A DNA stretch of 64,000 nt from Escherichia coli (lineage in GTDB: Bacteria > Pseudomonadota > Gammaproteobacteria > Enterobacterales > Enterobacteriaceae), in assembly GCF_044324785.1 (NCBI RefSeq), contig NZ_CP172127.1; one strand, given 5' to 3'. Positions 46,570-55,866 of this stretch are shown here, one piece after another (position 1 is the first letter of the stretch; each line of letters opens with the position of its first letter). The notes under the pieces are model-generated. The model ran no database searches. It was not told where the DNA came from and saw only the letters and a list, made by a program, of their open reading frames with translations. Position numbers and translations under genes: made by a program.

Positions 46570-47997
46570 ATGAGCGATAAAAAGAAGCGCAGTATGGCGG
46601 GTTTGCCGTGGATCGCGGCGATGGCCTTCTTCATGCAGGCACTTGATGCCACTATTCTGAATACCGCCTTACCCGCAATCGCTCATAGCCTTAATCGTTC
46701 TCCTCTCGCGATGCAATCAGCCATCATCAGTTATACGCTGACGGTGGCGATGCTTATTCCGGTAAGCGGATGGCTAGCCGATCGCTTCGGTACGCGTCGC
46801 ATTTTTACCCTTGCCGTGAGTCTGTTCACATTGGGTTCTCTGGCCTGCGCACTTTCTAATTCGCTACCACAGCTGGTTGTCTTCCGGGTTATTCAGGGGA
46901 TAGGCGGCGCAATGATGATGCCTGTTGCTCGGCTGGCCTTACTGCGCGCTTATCCTCGTAATGAACTTCTTCCAGTATTGAATTTTGTCGCCATGCCGGG
47001 TCTGGTGGGGCCAATTTTAGGCCCCGTTCTTGGCGGCGTGCTGGTCACCTGGGCAACCTGGCACTGGATATTTTTAATCAATATCCCCATAGGTATTGCG
47101 GGCCTTCTTTACGCGCGCAAACATATGCCCAATTTCACCACCGCACGACGCAGATTCGATATCACTGGCTTTTTGCTGTTTGGCCTCAGCCTTGTTCTCT
47201 TCTCAAGCGGAATAGAGCTATTCGGGGAAAAGATTGTCGCCAGCTGGATTGCCTTGACGGTAATTGTCACCAGCATCGGGTTACTGCTTCTCTATATTCT
47301 CCATGCACGACGCACGCCAAACCCATTAATTTCATTAGATTTATTTAAAACCCGCACTTTCTCGATCGGTATCGTAGGCAATATTGCAACCCGTCTGGGG
47401 ACCGGCTGTGTACCGTTCCTTATGCCATTGATGTTACAGGTAGGATTTGGTTATCAGGCGTTTATTGCCGGCTGTATGATGGCACCGACAGCGTTAGGTT
47501 CCATTATTGCAAAATCGATGGTTACCCAAGTCTTACGTCGTCTGGGCTATCGCCATACGTTAGTGGGGATCACGGTGATTATTGGGCTAATGATCGCTCA
47601 GTTCTCTTTGCAATCACCAGCAATGGCGATATGGATGCTGATCTTGCCGTTGTTTATATTAGGGATGGCTATGTCGACGCAATTTACCGCAATGAATACC
47701 ATCACACTTGCCGATCTGACCGATGACAACGCCAGCAGCGGTAACAGTGTTCTGGCGGTCACGCAGCAACTGTCTATCAGTTTAGGCGTTGCTGTAAGTG
47801 CGGCCGTCCTTCGCGTTTATGAAGGGATGGAAGGCACAACGACTGTCGAACAATTCCACTATACGTTTATCACGATGGGCATTATTACTGTTGCTTCAGC
47901 AGCAATGTTCATGCTTCTGAAAACAACCGATGGTAATAATTTGATCAAAAGACAGCGTAAATCTAAGCCGAACCGCGTTCCATCAGAATCGGAGTAA
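46570..47997 (+). CDS. hsrA: MFS-family efflux transporter HsrA (YieO), 475 aa
   Basis: 475 aa 14-TMS-type MFS ORF. Confidence 0.9.
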
Positions 47998-48955
47998 GTT
48001 GTAATCGTTGTTGCTGAAGGGTCGGTTGGGTTATCCGATGGATGAGTACATCAATCGCCAGCTCCCCTAGTTCATCTTTCGGTTGGTGGATAGTGGTTAA
48101 TGGTGGCGTCATAAAGCTTGCCAGTTCGATATCGTCATAGCCAATCACCGCGATATCCTGCGGAACTTGTAACTCTGCCTGATACAGCGCCTGGTAAACG
48201 CCAACAGCCATAGCGTCATTTCCGGTAAAGACGGCCTGAGGACGCAGCGGATGTAATAACAGTTGGCGCATAGCGTCAAACCCGCCGTTAAATTCAAAAT
48301 CACCAGTGACTTCATAGCCATCAGGAATGTTGAGACCCGCACGTTTCATCGCCGCCCGATAACCTTCCAACCGCAGGCGTGCCGGAGTTTTATCCAGCGG
48401 GCCGGTAATACAGGCGATACGGGTATGACCTTTATCGATCAGATATTGCGTTGCTAAGTCTCCGCCCAGCAACGAGTTATCCTGTATAAGATCGCTGTCG
48501 CCATCGAACGGAGCCCAGTCCATCATCACAGTAGGCACTGTCGGATAACGTTGCATGATTTCACGCGAAGGTTGATGCGTTTCGGTGCACAGTAACAGCA
48601 AGCCATCAACGCGTTTTTGCATCAGCGTTTCCAGATTGCGATTCATCCGCTGTTCATCGCCTTCGGTATTGCAAAGGACGAGACTATAACCGCGTTCGAA
48701 GCAGCTGCGTTCAACGCCACGCACCAGTTCTGAATAGAAAGGATTGGTACTGGCAGTGATCAACATGCCAATGGTATGTGTTTGATTGAGTTTGAGGCTA
48801 CGCGCCAGGGCTGATGGCGCGTAATTGAGTTCTTTAATCGCCGCTTCAACTTTGGCGGTAATCGCTTCACTGACGAAGCGATCTTTATTGATAACGTGAG
48901 AAACTGTTGAGGTAGAAACGCCCGCCAGGCGGGCAACATCTTTCATTGTAGCCAA
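47963..48955 (-). CDS. rbsR: Ribose operon repressor RbsR (LacI family), 330 aa
   Basis: N-terminal [23 protein letters not shown] helix-turn-helix; 3' end overlaps the hsrA 3' end by 35 bp. Confidence 0.93.
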
Positions 48956-48958
48956 GCG

Positions 48959-49888
48959 TCACCTCTGCCTGTCTAAAAATGCGTCGATCTCTTCACGCCA
49001 CGGTACGGAAGGTTGTGCGCCTTTACGTGTTACGGCAATCGCAGCGGCAGCATGGGCAAACCGAATCGCCTCTGGCAATGGTTTTTCTTCCAGCAACGCC
49101 GTGATTAACGCGCCGTTAAAGGTATCTCCGGCAGCAATGGTATCGACAGCCTGCACCCGGAATCCAGGAACGCGCTGACCTTCACCATTCACGCTAGCCC
49201 ATACACCACGACTTCCTAAAGTAATCAGTACAGTACGGATACCTTTTTCATGCAGTACCTGCGCCGCCTTCGCTGCATCTTCATCATTTTCAACACGAAT
49301 ACCGGTGAGCTTTTCTGCTTCCGTTTCGTTTGGCGTAATAATGTCCACCAGCGCCAGCAGTTCGTCAGGAAGTTCGCGAGCCGGAGCCGGGTTAAGCGCA
49401 ACGATAGTCTTATTTTGATGGGCGATTTTCGCCGCTGCCTTCACACTTTCGAGTGGTGATTCCAGCTGCATTAATAATGCTGACGCGTTGGCAATACGCT
49501 CACGTTGCGCTTCCACCAGCGCCGGGGAAAGGGCAGCATTAGCGCCGGCATGAATACCGATGACATTCTCACCTTCGCCATTAACAAAAATCAGCGCCAC
49601 ACCTGTTGATTCGCCTTTGATCACGCTGACCGGAGAAATATCAATGTTATCAGTGGCGAGCTGCTGGCGAACGCTCTCACCAATACTGTCATCACCCGTA
49701 CAGGCAATAAACGCGATATTCGCACCGCTACGCCCAGCAGCCACAGCCTGATTAGCGCCTTTGCCGCCAAATGCAACCTGATAGTGGTTACCGGTTACGG
49801 TTTCGCCTGGAGTAGGAAAAGATTGAAGATTAAGAATGTGGTCAGCATTAATGCTGCCAAGAACAACGAGGCTGCCTGCGTTTTGCAT
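48959..49888 (-). CDS. rbsK: Ribokinase, 309 aa
   Basis: Start at MQNAGSLVVLGSINADHIL...; the ORF track adds 9 codons. Confidence 0.92.
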   Translation of the reverse strand: MQNAGSLVVLGSINADHILNLQSFPTPGETVTGNHYQVAFGGKGANQAVAAGRSGANIAFIACTGDDSIGESVRQQLATDNIDISPVSVIKGESTGVALIFVNGEGENVIGIHAGANAALSPALVEAQRERIANASALLMQLESPLESVKAAAKIAHQNKTIVALNPAPARELPDELLALVDIITPNETEAEKLTGIRVENDEDAAKAAQVLHEKGIRTVLITLGSRGVWASVNGEGQRVPGFRVQAVDTIAAGDTFNGALITALLEEKPLPEAIRFAHAAAAIAVTRKGAQPSVPWREEIDAFLDRQR

Positions 49889-49908
49889 ATTCGGGATGTC
49901 CATAAAAT

Positions 49909-49931
49909 GCGCCACCGTGTTAGGGTGGCGC
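49909..49931 (-). terminator. Strong hairpin in the rbsB 3' UTR / rbsB-rbsK spacer
   Basis: GCGCCACC / GGTGGCGC stem with 7-nt loop followed on the minus strand by AUUUUAU. Confidence 0.45.
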
Positions 49932-50013
49932 GTGCCCTGCTTTTCTTTATATTACACGTTCATCTGTCGATGACGTATTTATGTCACCATCAGGTCATAC
50001 AACCTGATTAAAA

Positions 50014-50904
50014 CTACTGCTTAACAACCAGTTTCAGATCAACCGGATACTTAGCCTGAACTTTCTCGCCTTTCAGCACTTTATCTGCGGTTTCGACGCC
50101 TTTCGCGCCAATCTGATCGGGTAGCTGAGCGATAGTCGCTGCTAGTTTGCCATCATTCACCGCTTTTTCGCCATCCGGTGTACCGTCAAATCCGACGACC
50201 ATCACATCCGATTTACCGGCAGTTTGCAGCGCGCGCAGCGCGCCCAGCGCCATTTCATCATTCTGCGCGAATACAGCCTGAACATCCGGATGTGCGGTCA
50301 ACAGGTTCTGCATTACGTTCAAACCTTTAGTGCGATCAAAATCTGCTGGCTGGCTGGCAAGAACATTAAACTTGTGAGCAGCAACGGCCTGCTGGAAGCC
50401 TTCGCCACGTTCACGGGCTGCGGATGTACCAGCAATGCCTTGCAGCTCGATAACTTTGGCACCTTCGCCCGCTTTCTTCGCGATGTAATCACCGGCGATT
50501 TTGCCGCCCAGTACGTTATCAGAAGCAATGTGGCTCACCACTTCACCTTTCGTTGCCTGGCGGTCAAGAGTGATAACCGGGATGTTCGCCTGGTTAGCCA
50601 TCTTCACAGCATTACCCACTGCGTCGGAGTCGGTCGGGTTAATCAGCAGAATTTTGGTGCCGCGAACGGTTAAGTCCTGCACGTTCGCCAGCTCTTTCGC
50701 CGGGTTGTTCTGGGAGTCCAGCACCACCAGGTTATAGCCAAGTTTATCCGCCTCTTTCTGCGCGCCATCTTTCAGCGATACAAAGAACGGGTTGTTAAGC
50801 GTGGAGACCACCAGCGCGATGGTGTCTTTTGCCATCGCATTCGCACTGACGGTGGCGCTTAGCGCAACAGCGGAAACCAGGGTAGCCAGTTTTTTCATGT
50901 TCAT
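50014..50904 (-). CDS. rbsB: Periplasmic ribose-binding protein, 296 aa
   Basis: Start at [23 protein letters not shown] (signal peptide); the ORF track adds 2 codons. Confidence 0.93.
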
Positions 50905-50928
50905 ATTCAAGATGTCCTGTAGTCGTTA

Positions 50929-51894
50929 TTACTGCTTTTTGTTGTCTACCAGCACCGCCAGCAAAATCACCACCGCTTTGACGATCATCTGGTAATAGGA
51001 GGAAACACCTAACAAATTCAATCCATTATTAAGGAAGCCAAGAATTAATGCGCCGATCAACGTCCCAACAATGCGACCTTTTCCGCCCGCCAGACTCGTA
51101 CCGCCCAGAACCACCGCAGCAATAGCATCCAGCTCATAGCCAGTCCCCGCCGTAGGTTGTGCGGAGGAGAGACGCGCCACTTCAATGATCCCGGCCAGCG
51201 ATGCCAGCAGACCACAAAGAGAATAGACGATGATTTTGATTTTATTGACGTTGATACCAGAAAGGCGCGTTGCCGCTTCGTTGCCGCCCAGCGCGTAGAT
51301 GTAACGCCCCAGACGCGTGTGATGCAGCATGTACCAGACCGCGAGGAACACAATCCCCATGATCCAGACTGGCGTCGGTACGCCCAGCGGACGACCAATA
51401 CCAAACCAGCCAAACAGATCGGCGTTCTCAGTAAAGCCGGTATTCACTGGGCTACCATTGGTATAAACCATGGTCACGCCGCGCAGTAAAAGCATCATAA
51501 CCAGCGTAGCGATAAACGCCTGGACGCGACCTTTCGCTACAATCACCCCGGTTACCGCACCAATTGCGGCACCTAACGCGAGAGCGGCAGCGACAGCCAC
51601 CAGCGCATTGACTTCAATGCCGACGATAGATGCAGCAACTGCGCCGGTCAGCGCCAACAGAGAACCTACCGACAAGTCGATACCCGACGTCAGGATCACC
51701 AGCGTCATCCCGACCGCCATAATGGCGTTCACCGAGGTTTGCTGGAGAATATTGAATAAGTTATTGATGGTGAAAAAGTTCGGACTTAACGTCGAGACAA
51801 TCGCGATCAGCACCAGCAGAGCGATAAGCGATTTCTGCTCCATCAGCCACGCTTTCGTGAAATAACGGCGACCAGAGACAGTCTGGGTTGTCAT
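50929..51894 (-). CDS. rbsC: Ribose ABC transporter permease, 321 aa
   Basis: 321 aa polytopic ORF. Confidence 0.93.
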   Translation of the reverse strand: MTTQTVSGRRYFTKAWLMEQKSLIALLVLIAIVSTLSPNFFTINNLFNILQQTSVNAIMAVGMTLVILTSGIDLSVGSLLALTGAVAASIVGIEVNALVAVAAALALGAAIGAVTGVIVAKGRVQAFIATLVMMLLLRGVTMVYTNGSPVNTGFTENADLFGWFGIGRPLGVPTPVWIMGIVFLAVWYMLHHTRLGRYIYALGGNEAATRLSGINVNKIKIIVYSLCGLLASLAGIIEVARLSSAQPTAGTGYELDAIAAVVLGGTSLAGGKGRIVGTLIGALILGFLNNGLNLLGVSSYYQMIVKAVVILLAVLVDNKKQ

Positions 51895-51898
51895 TTTT

Positions 51899-53404
51899 TT
51901 ACTCCTGATTCACGCGATTAAGCTTGCCCACAGCGGCAGCCATTAACACTTCCTGGGTGGCCTGCTCACGAGTAAATTCCCCGCTGAGATGCCCTTCATG
52001 CATGACGATGATGCGATCGCTCATGCCTAATACTTCTGGCATCTCCGATGACACCAGAATGATGCTCAAGCCATCGGCTTTGAACTGGTTAATCAGTTGA
52101 TAGATCTCTTTTTTCGCGCCGACATCTACGCCACGGGTAGGCTCATCGAGGATCAACACTTTAGGGCGTGTCATTAGACCACGGGCAATCGCCACTTTTT
52201 GCTGATTGCCACCGGAAAGCAGACCAATTGCCTGTTCCATCGACGGCGTTTTCACATTAAACAGACGAATGAAATCACTCACTGCCTGCTGTTCATCGGC
52301 ATGCTTCAAACTGCCGCCAGTACGGCTAAAGTAACGCAGCGCAGTCAGCGACATATTCTCTTTTACTGACATGCCCAGCACTAAACCGTCACGTTTACGG
52401 TCTTCAGAGATATACACAATGCCGTTTGCCAGGCCATCCTGCGGTGAACGGGTAACGACTTCATGCCCATCCAGGGTGACGTAACCACTGGTGCGCGGCA
52501 GTGCGCCGTAGAGCACTTTCATCAGTTCGGTACGACCTGCGCCCATCAAACCAGAGACGCCAAGAATTTCGCCTTTGCGTAAAGTAAAAGAGACATCGTT
52601 AACGCCAGGTCCGCAGAGATTATCGACTTTCAGGCGAATATCTCCCGGCGCTTTGTCCAGGTGTGGATATTGATCTTCCAGCTTGCGGCCCACCATCATC
52701 TCAATCAGCGAATCTTCGGTCAGTGATGCTACTTCACGCTCAGCAATAAATTGCCCGTCACGAAAAACGGTAACGTCATCGCAAATCTCGAAGATTTCTT
52801 TCATGCGGTGGGAAATATAGACAATACCGCGGCCTTGCGATTTCAGCTCGCGGATGACGCGGAACAAGGATTCGGTTTCGGTATCGGTCAGCGCATCGGT
52901 CGGTTCATCCATAATGATGACTTTCGACTCAAAGCTCAGCACTTTGGCTATTTCAACCATTTGCTGGTCACCGATGGAAAGATCGCCCACCAGCTTGTCG
53001 CTTTTAAAGCGCAGGTTAAGTTTAGCCAGCAATTTATCCGCTTCGGCATACATGGTTTTCCAGTCAATTTTGCCAAAGCGATTAACAAACTCACGACCGA
53101 GGAAAATGTTTTCGGCAATGGTCAACTGCGGGATCAGGTTCAGTTCCTGATGGATAATCCCAATCCCGGCTTCCTGGGAAGATTTCGGCCCGGTAAACGT
53201 CGTTTCTTTCCCCAGCCATAAAAGCGTACCGGCATCGCGAGTATAGATACCCGTAAGCACTTTCATCATGGTGGATTTACCCGCACCGTTTTCGCCCACC
53301 AGCGCCATCACACGGCCCGGATAGACATTTAACGCTGCGCCCGAGAGGGCTTTTACGCCCGGGAAGGCTTTATCGATGCCTTTAAGCTGAAGTAATGCTT
53401 CCAT
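51899..53404 (-). CDS. rbsA: Ribose ABC transporter ATP-binding protein with duplicated ABC domains, 501 aa
   Basis: Two Walker A motifs (GENGAGKST and a second copy) in a 501 aa ORF. Confidence 0.93.
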
Positions 53405-53411
53405 GACGGCC

Positions 53412-53831
53412 TCAGAACGTCACGCCAGCACAGAGAATGATATTCGCATACGGAGAACATTCTCCGCTGCGAATTACCGCCTGACTTTCTGCGGTTTGTT
53501 GTTTGAATTGTTCATGCGTGGTGTAACGAATTTCAATGGTATTTCCCTGGTGTTGTTGCAGCTGCTCAAGGTGAGTGAGCAACGTTTCGTGGAGATGCGG
53601 ATTATGTTGTTTGATCTCTTCCGCGATAATGGCCGCCTCGACCTGCATTTCATTTGTGACGACGCCCAGCACCTGCATAAAAGAAGGTACACCCTGGGTT
53701 AATGCCATATCGATACGCGTTGTACTTTTGGGGATGGGTAAACCAGCATCACACACCACCAGCGTATCGGTATGTCCCAGACGGGAGATCACCGATGAAA
53801 TATCAGAATTAAGAACGGTGCCTTTTTTCAT
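53412..53831 (-). CDS. rbsD: D-ribose pyranase, 139 aa
   Basis: Start at [22 protein letters not shown]...; the ORF track adds 4 codons. Confidence 0.9.
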
Positions 53832-53842
53832 TTTTTTCTCCA

Positions 53843-53862
53843 TCAGCGAAACGTTTCGCTGA
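53843..53862. promoter_or_regulatory. Perfect 20-bp palindrome, candidate RbsR operator
   Basis: TCAGCGAAACGTTTCGCTGA is exactly self-complementary and lies 12 bp upstream of the rbsD start. Confidence 0.65.
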
Positions 53863-53955
53863 CCCGCAGTTTAATCCTGACTGAGTAGGGAAAACCATCG
53901 TGACGTTACGGAAATGTGATCAACCTCGAAACGTTTTACATGGTGATTAACCATG

Positions 53956-53991
53956 AAAACAAAAACGCCCCCTTATGGAGAAAGGAGGCGT
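53956..53991 (-). terminator. Candidate intrinsic terminator after kup
   Basis: Imperfect ACGCCTCC / GGGGGCGT stem followed on the minus strand by UUUUGUUUU. Confidence 0.4.
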
Positions 53992-53997
53992 CTGGCG

Positions 53998-55866
53998 TTA
54001 GATTTCGACCTGAGTACCCAGTTCGATAACCCTGTTTGGCGGGATTTCAAATTGATCCGGCGCACGCAGCGCATTACGTTGCAGCAGCAAGTACAGCTTG
54101 CCGCGCAGACGCAAATACCACGGGCGTTTGCCGAGGATCAACGACTCATGCGACATAAAGAAAGAGGTTTCCATCATCCGGCAACTTAATCCTTCCAGAC
54201 CGCAGCGGTGGAAAACTTCTTCCACGTTTGGCGTTTCTCGCCAACCATAACTTGCCACCACGCGCCAGAAAGTGGGCGACAGTTGTTCAATCTGTACCCG
54301 ACGGACGTTATGGACATAAGGCGCGTCTTCGGTGCGCAGAGTTAACAGAATCACCCGCTCATGCAATACCTTGTTATGTTTAAGGTTATGCATCAGCGCA
54401 AAGGGAATGACGTTGATTGCACGTGACATATACACCGCGGTCCCGGGCACGCGAACGGGCGGTGATTTCTCCAGCGAAGCAATCATCGCCTCCAGAGAGT
54501 TACCATGTTCATGCATCCGCCGCAGCAAACGGAAACGTTCGCTCTTCCAGGTGGTCATCACGATAAACATCACCGTACCGAGGCTCAATGGCAACCAGCC
54601 GCCGGAGAGCAGTTTATCGAGGTTAGCGGTGAACAATGGAATATCGACACAAAGGAAAGCAATCAGGATCAGCGCAACAAAATACTTATTCCAGTGCCAG
54701 TTCTGACGTGCCACGGTAGTCGAGAGAATAGACGTCAGCACCATGGTTCCGGTCACCGCAATCCCATACGCCGCCGCCAGGTTGCTGGAGTGCTCAAAGC
54801 TGACAATCACAATCACGACCGCGACATAGAGCATCCAGTTCACAAACGGAATATAGATTTGCCCTGACTCCATTTCGGAGGTGTGAATAATGCGCATCGG
54901 CGACAAATATCCCAGACGTACCGCCTGACGCGTCAATGAGAAGACGCCAGAGATAACCGCCTGCGAGGCAATTACCGTCGCCAGTGCGGCGATGATCAGC
55001 AGCGGGATCAGCGCCCAGTCCGGTGCCAACAGGAAGAACGGGTTCTTAATTGCTTCCGGGTTCTTTAACAACAGAGCGCCCTGACCGAAGTAATTAAGAG
55101 TTAAGGAAGGTAATACGACGGTGAACCACGCCAGGCGAATAGGGAACTTACCAAAGTGCCCCATATCAGCATACAGCGCCTCGACCCCCGTAATCGACAG
55201 CACCACTGCCCCTAATGCAATAAAAGAAACCGTTTTGTATTCAAGGAAGAAATGCACCGCCCACATCGGATTCAGCGCATGCAGCACTTCCGGGTTAGCA
55301 ATAATGCTACGTAACCCCAGTCCTGCCAGAATCAAAAACCAGGTCAGCATGATCGGCGCAAACAGCTTACCGACCATAGCCGTGCCATGTTTTTGAATCA
55401 TAAATAATAAAGTGAGAACGATAATTGAGAGGGGAACTATCCAGGTATCCAGCTGCGGGGCGACGATTTCCAGACCTTCAATGGCTGACATCACCGAAAT
55501 AGCGGGTGTTATGACGACTTCACCATAGAAAAAGCTGCCGCCGATTAGCCCCATAATCACCAGCATTGATGTGGTTCGCGCCGACGTATTACGCCCGGCA
55601 AGCGACATCAACGTCAGGATCCCCCCTTCACCGGCGTTATCTGCCCGCATCACGAAGGTGAGATATTTAATGGAAACCACAAAGATTAGCAGCCAGAAGA
55701 TCAGCGATAAAAAGCCAAACACGGCATCGCGTTCAACGCCAAAACCAAACTGGCCGGACAAACATTCACGAAGTGTATATAACGGGCTGGTACCAATATC
55801 GCCGTAGACAACTCCAATCGCCGCGAGGGTAATCGCGGGCAATGATTGCTTATTATCAGTGCTCAT
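53998..55866 (-). CDS. kup: Low-affinity potassium uptake protein Kup (TrkD), 622 aa
   Basis: 622 aa ORF with a 12-TMS N-terminal domain and cytoplasmic C-terminal domain. Confidence 0.93.

What the first reader, a model, noticed from the sequence alone, without database searches (positions are those of the whole stretch)
49889..50013. Stable hairpin in the rbsB 3' UTR, candidate RbsZ-type sRNA or intra-operon attenuator
Immediately after rbsB and before rbsK the minus strand forms GCGCCACC(cuaacac)GGUGGCGC followed by AUUUUAU. This is terminator-like but inside the operon, which would give partial termination and differential rbsDACB versus rbsKR expression. I recall a 3'UTR-derived sRNA (RbsZ) reported for rbsB, but that is not verified here.
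Basis: partly seen in the sequence, partly recalled or inferred. Interest (0 to 1): 0.35.

Follow-up and report, generated by a model that had tools for sequence, protein, structure and literature searches.

The report
Terminator hairpin of known sRNA RbsZ
The hairpin between the ribose genes rbsB and rbsK is the transcription terminator of RbsZ, an already published and annotated E. coli small RNA that soaks up the stress regulator RybB, so the finding is correct but ordinary.

Summary
On the minus strand, GCGCCACC-cuaacac-GGUGGCGC (window 49931-49909) is followed by AUUUUAU. It sits 83 nt after the rbsB stop codon and 20 nt before the rbsK ATG.

The window is a non-K-12 E. coli. Window 49880-50150 is 100% identical to MG1655, where RefSeq annotates ncRNA rbsZ (b4804) at 3937045-3937278. 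That maps to window 50137-49904 (-). Published term-seq places a strong RNA 3' end at 3937278, the last U of the UUUU run.

Just upstream of the hairpin lies a largely unpaired stretch (49950-49933) complementary to nt 1-18 of RybB. Citing literature describes RbsZ as a RybB sponge that acts with Hfq, ProQ and RNase III.

Across 80 Enterobacterales species the GC hairpin is kept 17-24 nt upstream of rbsK in 73, with compensatory changes and freely varying loops. The RybB-complementary 12-mer is exact in 26 species and within one mismatch in 39. The U-tract is weak in most species.

rbsK and rbsR lie downstream in the named rbsDACBKR operon, so termination must be partial.

Verdict: already known, low interest.

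The parts
49904..50137 (-). Full-length RbsZ sRNA (234 nt). Its 5' end lies inside the rbsB coding sequence and its 3' end at the terminator U run.
   Evidence: RefSeq ncRNA rbsZ b4804 at 3937045-3937278. The same coordinates appear in Bar et al. 2021, PMC8175672. The window is 100% identical over 271 columns.
49909..49931 (-). Terminator stem-loop GCGCCACC-CUAACAC-GGUGGCGC (8 bp, 7 G-C pairs, 7-nt loop).
   Evidence: Hairpin energy -15.2 kcal/mol and arms with P(unpaired) = 0.00. RNAalifold predicts the same 8 pairs across 73 species. Over the 10 pairs tested (the 8-bp stem plus two inner extension pairs), 91% of cells are paired, 8 of 10 pairs show changes on both sides, and 0 of 500 shuffles reach the observed values.
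49902..49908 (-). Short, interrupted U-tract AUUUUAU. The mapped RNA 3' end is at 49904, the last U of UUUU.
   Evidence: Term-seq 3' end at MG1655 3937278(+), scores 84576 and 107544, in supplementary file 1 of Adams et al. 2021. Coordinate mapping.
49933..49950 (-). RybB-complementary site AUAAAGAAAAGCAGGGCA. The core 12-mer AAAGAAAAGCAG is at 49948-49937.
   Evidence: Predicted duplex with RybB nt 1-18 at -23.3 kcal/mol, reached by 3 of 300 mononucleotide shuffles (RybB sequence). The 12-mer occurs once in the window. Mean P(unpaired) of the core is 0.77. The 12-mer is exact in 26 of 80 species and within one mismatch in 39 of 80.
49989..50008 (-). First hairpin of the spacer, AUCAGGUU-GUAU-GACCUGAU, starting 5 nt after the rbsB stop codon.
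   Evidence: Present in the minimum-free-energy fold. The UCAGG...CCUGA arms recur with different inner stems and loops in Enterobacteriaceae that have ~100-140 nt spacers. They are absent from species with 58-75 nt spacers (by eye).
49956..49976 (-). Second hairpin ACGUCAUC-GACA-GAUGAACGU. It lies within the region targeted by the published RbsZ northern probe.
   Evidence: Minimum-free-energy folds. Probe AZ1421 'sense to RbsZ' is listed in the Adams 2021 supplement.
50144..50152 (-). Possible extended -10 element TGgCAAACT at -15 to -7 of the annotated RbsZ 5' end. This is an inference only.
   Evidence: Sequence. Third-codon positions of GAT GGC AAA CTG are 0.71-0.96 conserved, against a gene mean of 0.69, across 52 species. 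The consensus promoter scan found nothing here. A separate promoter for the long form is stated in bioRxiv 10.1101/2023.08.28.555190.
50014..50904 (-). rbsB, encoding the ribose periplasmic binding protein. It is the host gene of RbsZ.
48959..49888 (-). rbsK (ribokinase), the downstream gene reached only by read-through. Its ATG is at 49888-49886, with a weak GGA Shine-Dalgarno-like motif at 49901-49899.
   Evidence: translation begins MQNAGSLVVLGSINADH.

Best explanation
The hairpin plus U run is the Rho-independent terminator that forms the 3' end of RbsZ, a known E. coli sRNA from the rbsB 3' region.

Shown here or in cited data:
- Transcripts ending at window 49904 carry a largely unpaired 18-nt stretch complementary to the 5' seed of RybB, directly 5' of the hairpin.
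- The RNA is annotated, its 3' end is mapped, and it is detected on northern blots.

From citing literature:
- A long form starts at an internal promoter in rbsB (window 50137). A shorter form, RbsZ-S, is processed from rbsDACB/rbsB mRNA.
- RbsZ pairs with RybB on Hfq and triggers RNase III-dependent decay of the duplex, while ProQ binding protects the duplex.
- This lowers RybB, derepresses RybB targets such as ompC, and feeds back positively on rbsB.

Inferred:
- Because rbsK and rbsR lie downstream in the same operon, the terminator is leaky. It therefore also sets an rbsDACB > rbsKR expression step.
- The terminal hairpin with its U tail is the expected Hfq/ProQ binding and 3'-exonuclease-protection module.
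For: - Identity to the annotated rbsZ locus. The same coordinates are in PMC8175672.
- Term-seq 3' end exactly at the end of the U run.
- Terminator-like geometry and stability.
- RybB complementarity next to the hairpin, unique in the window and largely unpaired.
- RybB sponge function: RbsZ overexpression lowers RybB and raises ompC mRNA (Adams 2021). ProQ/Hfq/RNase III mechanism (review PMC9977716). The RbsZ-RybB contact was recaptured by TRIC-seq.
- Northern detection in K-12, EHEC and Shigella, the last as ~230-nt cssrG.
- RepRanger classes the rbsZ palindrome as a Rho-independent terminator, not a REP.
- Conservation: 5,398 of 5,426 E. coli genomes hold the locus, and 5,313 of 5,399 matching records are >=99% identical.
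- The hairpin covaries across 73 Enterobacterales sequences.
Against: - The primary paper (Melamed et al. 2020, Mol Cell, PMC6980735) is not held. The mechanism is taken from citing papers.
- The U-tract is short and interrupted (A-UUUU-A-U), so termination efficiency may be modest. Term-seq cannot distinguish termination from 3' trimming back to a stable hairpin.
- In 48 of the 75 species where a hairpin was scored, the 8-nt tail has three or fewer U. The conserved role of the hairpin may therefore not be termination as such.
- No expression data exist for this particular non-K-12 strain, which differs from MG1655 at 83 of 7,001 positions in the rbs region.
- Rfam 15 has no family covering the region, so there is no curated model to score against.
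Confidence: 0.95

Rival explanations
1. It is only a cis-acting intra-operon partial terminator (a polarity element). It lowers rbsK and rbsR transcription relative to rbsDACB, and the released RNA has no trans-acting role.
For: The terminator-like hairpin sits inside the rbsDACBKR operon, and a strong 3' end is mapped there. The hairpin stays at a fixed 17-24 nt from the rbsK start in 73 of 80 species, including species that lack the RybB-complementary 12-mer.
Against: The RybB-complementary site is conserved across several families. Published overexpression, mutant and interactome data show the RNA acts on RybB. As an additional function this reading is likely. As the sole function it contradicts the literature.
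Confidence: 0.04
2. The 3' end is made by processing, not termination. Polymerase reads through into rbsK, an endonuclease cuts downstream, and 3' exonucleases trim back to the stable hairpin. The hairpin then acts mainly as a stabiliser of the upstream rbsB/RbsZ RNA.
For: The U-tract is short in E. coli. It is weak or absent in most relatives, for example Enterobacter CUCUCAGA and Citrobacter ACUUUGAC, even though the hairpin is conserved. Term-seq alone does not separate the two routes.
Against: The E. coli 3' end falls exactly at the last U of UUUU, 5 nt past the stem. That is the canonical position for intrinsic termination. RepRanger and the simple scan both class it as an intrinsic terminator.
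Confidence: 0.12
3. It is a regulated attenuator. An alternative structure or a bound factor (a metabolite, a protein, or RybB/Hfq itself) switches the hairpin off to control rbsKR expression.
For: The seed's 3' end (AGGG, 49939-49936) could pair with CCCU (49926-49923). That overlaps the 5' arm and loop, giving a weak 4-bp competitor (sequence). In Enterobacter-type spacers, GUGGC-AUAC-GCCAC offers a similar competitor.
Against: No Rfam riboswitch or leader hit at E <= 10 overlaps the hairpin or the spacer. The terminator arms are fully paired in the ensemble, with P(unpaired) = 0.00. The competitor helices are far weaker than the -15.2 kcal/mol hairpin. No literature found in the searches run here supports it.
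Confidence: 0.03
4. It is a REP/BIME-type repeated palindrome or a chance hairpin with no specific function.
For: It is a G+C-rich extragenic palindrome between two genes of an operon, as REPs are.
Against: It is single-copy in the 64-kb window, and the 311-nt region is single-copy per genome at the median. RepRanger labels it RIT, not REP. Orthologous position and covariation across 73 species argue against chance.
Confidence: 0.01

Closest known systems
RbsZ (rbsZ, b4804), E. coli K-12 sRNA derived from the rbsB 3' UTR and sponge of RybB (Melamed et al. 2020, as cited)
   Same: Same locus, same strand, and 100% identical sequence over the whole 234 nt. The terminator hairpin, mapped 3' end and RybB-complementary site are all the same.
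   Different: Nothing in the RNA itself differs. The host strain is not K-12: it differs from MG1655 at 83 of 7,001 positions in the surrounding rbs region.
[quoted passage not shown]
   Same: All are by-products of another transcript that pair with RybB and lower its activity.
   Different: They have different genomic origins. FtsO comes from inside a coding sequence and 3'ETS-leuZ from tRNA processing. RbsZ ends at its own intrinsic terminator inside a sugar operon and has its own internal promoter as well as a processed form.
3'UTR-derived sRNAs that share the host mRNA's terminator, such as RaiZ, CpxQ, SdhX, NarS and MalH
   Same: The architecture matches: the 5' part overlaps or follows a coding sequence, and the 3' end is the gene's Rho-independent terminator, which serves as the Hfq/ProQ binding site. 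Long and short isoforms occur (table).
   Different: Most sit at the end of an operon. RbsZ and XylZ are classed as 'intergenic in operon', so the terminator must be leaky for the downstream genes.
Intra-operon partial terminators and intercistronic stabilising hairpins, for example malE-malF REP hairpins (from general knowledge, not tested here)
   Same: A stable hairpin between cistrons yields more of the upstream periplasmic binding-protein mRNA than of the downstream genes.
   Different: This hairpin is not a REP, and the released RNA has a documented trans-acting role.

Membership tests
RbsZ sRNA (E. coli rbsZ, b4804) | Located at the rbsB 3' end and rbsB-rbsK spacer, on the same strand as the operon. 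| tested here: met
   ORF map and annotation.
RbsZ sRNA (E. coli rbsZ, b4804) | Sequence identity to the annotated 234-nt RNA. | tested here: met
   271 of 271 columns are identical to MG1655 3937032-3937302.
RbsZ sRNA (E. coli rbsZ, b4804) | 3' end at the hairpin and U run (3937278). | tested here: met
   The annotated end and the published term-seq peak both map to window 49904, the last U of UUUU. This was mapped by sequence. It was not measured in this strain.
RbsZ sRNA (E. coli rbsZ, b4804) | Accessible complementarity to the RybB 5' seed. | tested here: met
   Window 49950-49933 pairs with RybB nt 1-18 at -23.3 kcal/mol. The core has P(unpaired) = 0.77.
RbsZ sRNA (E. coli rbsZ, b4804) | Expression as a discrete RNA, Hfq/ProQ binding, and RNase III-dependent RybB decay. 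| not testable with these tools
   Literature only.
Rho-independent (intrinsic) terminator | G+C-rich stem of 5 or more bp with a 3-8 nt loop. | tested here: met
   8 bp, 7 G-C pairs, 7-nt loop, -15.2 kcal/mol.
Rho-independent (intrinsic) terminator | U-rich tract immediately 3' of the stem. | tested here: met
   AUUUUAUG has 5 U in 8 nt. It passes the scan threshold but is short and interrupted. In 48 of 75 orthologous hairpins the tail has three or fewer U.
Rho-independent (intrinsic) terminator | Factor-independent termination by RNA polymerase at that site, with a measured efficiency. | not testable with these tools
   Only an in vivo 3' end is known.
Regulated attenuator or riboswitch | A mutually exclusive antiterminator structure or a known sensor domain. 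| tested here: not met
   No Rfam match covers the hairpin or spacer at E <= 10. The terminator arms are paired in essentially the whole ensemble.
REP/BIME repeated extragenic palindrome | Multi-copy palindrome family dispersed in the genome. | tested here: not met
   One copy in the window. RepRanger labels it RIT.

The most novel reading that the evidence does not exclude
The conserved element across Enterobacterales may be the module itself: a RybB-complementary site plus a GC hairpin held about 20 nt upstream of the rbsK start, rather than an efficient terminator. Most species have a weak U tail.

On that reading, the ancestral role of the hairpin would be RNA 3'-end protection or chaperone docking, or control of rbsK translation or read-through. 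RybB/Hfq binding beside it could then couple envelope stress to rbsKR expression in cis, in addition to the known sponge activity.
Probability: 0.08. Interest if true: 0.4.

Novelty: already known. Interest (0 to 1): 0.1.

Why it matters
For annotating this window it matters only modestly. It places a named, experimentally characterised sRNA, which links ribose availability to the RybB envelope-stress and porin regulon, in a spot that automatic annotation leaves blank. PGAP annotation of the other E. coli genomes lists only rbsB and rbsK here, and Rfam 15 has no family covering it.

The cross-species survey adds a small point. The seed-plus-hairpin module extends well beyond Escherichia, while U-tract strength varies between lineages.

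Nothing here changes current understanding.

Tried and rejected
- **Rfam 15 scan of 49000-51000 at E <= 10.** It returned only chance snoRNA and leader hits elsewhere and nothing over the hairpin. There is therefore no curated family to score against.
- **Fetching the primary paper.** Attempts by DOI and by PMC6980735 both failed because the paper is not held.
- **Full-length RbsZ x RybB duplexfold.** It gave a meaningless duplex spanning huge interior loops (-56.7 kcal/mol, reached by 8 of 300 shuffles). I used the RybB nt 1-20 seed calculation instead.
- **A dinucleotide-shuffle script.** It timed out, so mononucleotide shuffles were used.
- **First tblastn for rbsK.** It used an out-of-frame query and was redone correctly.
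- **Within-E. coli variation.** It was too small to test covariation: 5,313 of 5,399 matching records are >=99% identical. I therefore used 80 species from genome contigs.
- **Consensus sigma-70 scan.** It found no promoter for the RbsZ 5' end. Only a weak extended -10 candidate is proposed.
- **Plus-strand 'terminator-like' hit at 49921-49939.** Rejected as a by-product: it depends on G-T pairs and on the T-rich complement of the RybB-binding site.
- **REP element and chance hairpin.** Both rejected.

Full report
**Observation**

The rbsB stop codon TAG is at 50016-50014 and the rbsK start ATG at 49888-49886. The hairpin lies 83 nt after the rbsB stop and 20 nt before the rbsK ATG.

A consensus scan independently lists the hairpin as terminator-like: 8 pairs, 7 of them G-C, with a 7-nt loop. 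The isolated hairpin folds at -15.2 kcal/mol. The whole spacer folds at -41.5 kcal/mol against -26.05 +/- 3.65 for shuffles, z = -4.23, with 0 of 200 shuffles as stable. The palindrome occurs once in the 64-kb window.

**Identity of the locus**

The region is E. coli rbsB-rbsK. A 601-nt query matches 5,398 of 5,426 complete E. coli genomes, all annotated rbsB and rbsK. In MG1655, RefSeq annotates an ncRNA, rbsZ (b4804, 'small regulatory RNA RbsZ'), at 3937045-3937278, between and overlapping rbsB and rbsK.

Window 49880-50150 (minus strand) is identical to MG1655 at all 271 aligned positions. RbsZ therefore maps to window 50137-49904. The host strain itself is not K-12: the surrounding 7 kb differs from MG1655 at 83 positions.

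Bar et al. 2021 list the same RbsZ coordinates and class it as 'intergenic in operon'. Rfam 15 has no family covering the region. That fits with PGAP-annotated genomes listing only rbsB and rbsK here.

**Experimental evidence from papers**

- The supplement of Adams et al. 2021 (eLife, PMC7815308) lists a term-seq 3' end at 3937278(+) with scores of 84576 and 107544. The printed context ends ...GGTGGCGCATTTT, then ATGGACATCC. This is window 49904, the last U of the UUUU run and 5 nt past the stem, which is the canonical position for an intrinsic terminator.
[quoted passage not shown] It reports that RbsZ overexpression lowers RybB and raises ompC mRNA.
- A review summarises the mechanism: RbsZ inactivates RybB in an Hfq-dependent, RNase III-mediated way, while ProQ binding protects the duplex.
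- A 2023 preprint states that the 3'UTR of rbsDACB/rbsB transcripts is processed into RbsZ-S, that a longer RbsZ comes from a separate promoter, and that sponging RybB gives positive feedback on RbsB.
- TRIC-seq recaptured the RbsZ-RybB contact.
- Northern detection is reported in K-12 and EHEC. An RNA of about 230 nt, cssrG, was seen between rbsB and rbsK in Shigella flexneri as early as 2011.
- RepRanger classes the rbsZ palindrome as a Rho-independent terminator rather than a REP.
- The primary paper (Melamed et al. 2020) is not held, so mechanistic statements rest on citing papers.

**What the sequence adds**

Directly 5' of the hairpin, window 49950-49933 (AUAAAGAAAAGCAGGGCA) is complementary to nt 1-18 of RybB. 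RybB was taken from MG1655. The pairing comprises 12 contiguous Watson-Crick pairs, one G-U pair, and three more pairs after a one-nucleotide bulge. The predicted duplex energy is -23.3 kcal/mol, reached by 3 of 300 shuffles.

The 12-mer AAAGAAAAGCAG is unique in the window. In the full-length RbsZ ensemble it is mostly single-stranded, with mean P(unpaired) = 0.77. The terminator arms are always paired (0.00), and the loop and tail are free (0.99).

It is the functional core of the sponge.

**Conservation beyond E. coli**

One scan of species-representative genomes with RbsB returned 80 Enterobacterales loci. I extracted each rbsB-rbsK spacer.

- **Hairpin position.** A G+C-rich hairpin, usually GCGCCACC...GGUGGCGC, ends 17-24 nt upstream of the rbsK start in 73 of the 80 loci.
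- **Loops.** Loops vary freely in sequence and length.
- **Structure prediction.** In a 73-sequence alignment, RNAalifold predicts the same 8 pairs without being told.
- **Covariation.** For the 10 pairs tested (the 8-bp stem plus two inner extension pairs), 91.2% of cells are paired, against 30-58% when the partner is slid by 1-3 columns. Eight of the 10 pairs show changes on both sides, and 0 of 500 shuffles reach the observed values. The tool's caveat applies: shuffles ignore relatedness.
- **Compensated stems.** Examples are GCGCCGUCA/UGACGGCGC in Phytobacter, GCGCCGCUCA/UGAGCGGCGC in an isolate labelled Enterobacter sp. Cy-643 (L052), and GCGCCAUCG/CGAUGGCGC in Serratia.
- **Seed.** The RybB-complementary 12-mer is exact in 26 species and within one mismatch in 39. 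These include Citrobacter, Salmonella, Klebsiella, Raoultella, Kosakonia, Cedecea, Buttiauxella, Pantoea, Erwinia and one Yersinia.
- **U tail.** The U tail is not conserved. Among the 75 loci where a hairpin was scored, 8 have 5 U in the 8-nt tail (E. coli and E. albertii among them), 19 have 4, and 48 have three or fewer. Termination strength is probably lineage-specific. In some species the 3' end may be made by trimming.

**Mechanism**

The best-supported account has three parts.

1. RNA polymerase coming from the rbsD promoter, or from an internal promoter in rbsB, partly terminates at 49904. This is supported by the mapped 3' end and the terminator geometry.
2. The released RNAs (234-nt RbsZ and a shorter processed RbsZ-S) expose the RybB-complementary site next to a terminal hairpin and U tail, which is the usual Hfq/ProQ docking module. 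They titrate and destabilise RybB. This part comes from the literature and is consistent with the sequence.
3. Polymerases that read through express rbsK and rbsR. This is inferred from the operon name rbsDACBKR and from finding no promoter-like site in the spacer.

A regulated attenuator is not supported. No sensor family matches, and no competing structure appears in the ensemble.

A processing-only origin of the 3' end cannot be excluded with these tools. It is more plausible in species with weak tails than in E. coli.

**Verdict**

The finding is real and correctly interpreted, but it is an already known, annotated and experimentally characterised sRNA terminator. Interest is low. The only mildly new material is the breadth of conservation of the seed-plus-hairpin module and the variability of its U tail.

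Noticed in passing
window 49989-50008 (-); L005-L047 spacers: The first hairpin after the rbsB stop (UCAGG...CCUGA, then GGGAC) recurs in Enterobacteriaceae with 100-147 nt spacers, with different inner stems and loops. It is missing in species with 58-75 nt spacers, where the RybB-complementary site follows the stop codon almost directly. Its role in RbsZ is unknown to me.
   Followed up: partly
L008, L013-L017, L019, L023, L026, L031 (Enterobacter, Leclercia, Lelliottia); L040, L042, L045-L047 (Kosakonia and others): Each lineage deviates differently from a perfect RybB complement (AAAGAAAAGCAGUGGC). E. coli has GCAG-GGC, Kosakonia GCAUGGC and Enterobacter GUGUGGC. All keep the A-rich half and the terminal GGC, so an imperfect duplex with a bulge may be the selected state. 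RybB in those genomes was not fetched.
   Followed up: no
window 50144-50155 (-), inside rbsB: Third-codon positions of GAT GGC AAA CTG, just upstream of the annotated RbsZ 5' end, are 0.71-0.96 conserved across 52 species, against a gene mean of 0.69. This fits an extended -10 element, TGgCAAACT. By contrast, the rbsB-embedded 5' part of RbsZ shows no excess wobble conservation (0.665 against 0.696).
   Followed up: partly
window 50019 (-) = MG1655 3937163: The Adams 2021 term-seq tables also list a minor 3' end (score 1296) inside rbsB, 5 nt before the end of its stop codon and upstream of the first spacer hairpin.
   Followed up: no
L065 2388-2652; L072, L074, L075, L077 spacers; L055 spacer: Pectobacterium betavasculorum has a 262-nt spacer. 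Its insert (…GAATCCCCAGGAGCTTACACAAGTAAGTGACTGGGGTGAG…) looks, from memory, like an ERIC/IRU repeat placed upstream of the retained seed and hairpin. Several Yersinia spacers lack the module and carry other palindromic inserts. Entomohabitans (L055) has a different 16-bp A/U-rich terminator-like hairpin. None of these was tested.
   Followed up: no
window 49921-49939 (+): The terminator scan also reports a plus-strand site, TAGGGTGGCGCGTGCCCTG followed by CTTTTCTTTA. It is the mirror image of the RybB-binding site plus half the hairpin and relies on G-T pairs, so it is most likely an artefact.
   Followed up: yes
window 47182-54182: The strain differs from MG1655 at 83 of 7,001 positions across kup-rbsDACBKR-hsrA but at none of the 271 positions around rbsZ. 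About 3 differences would be expected at the regional rate.
   Followed up: partly
window 49904-50137; Rfam 15: RbsZ has no matching Rfam family, and PGAP-annotated E. coli genomes list only rbsB and rbsK under the match. The 73-sequence alignment A2 could seed a covariance model.
   Followed up: no
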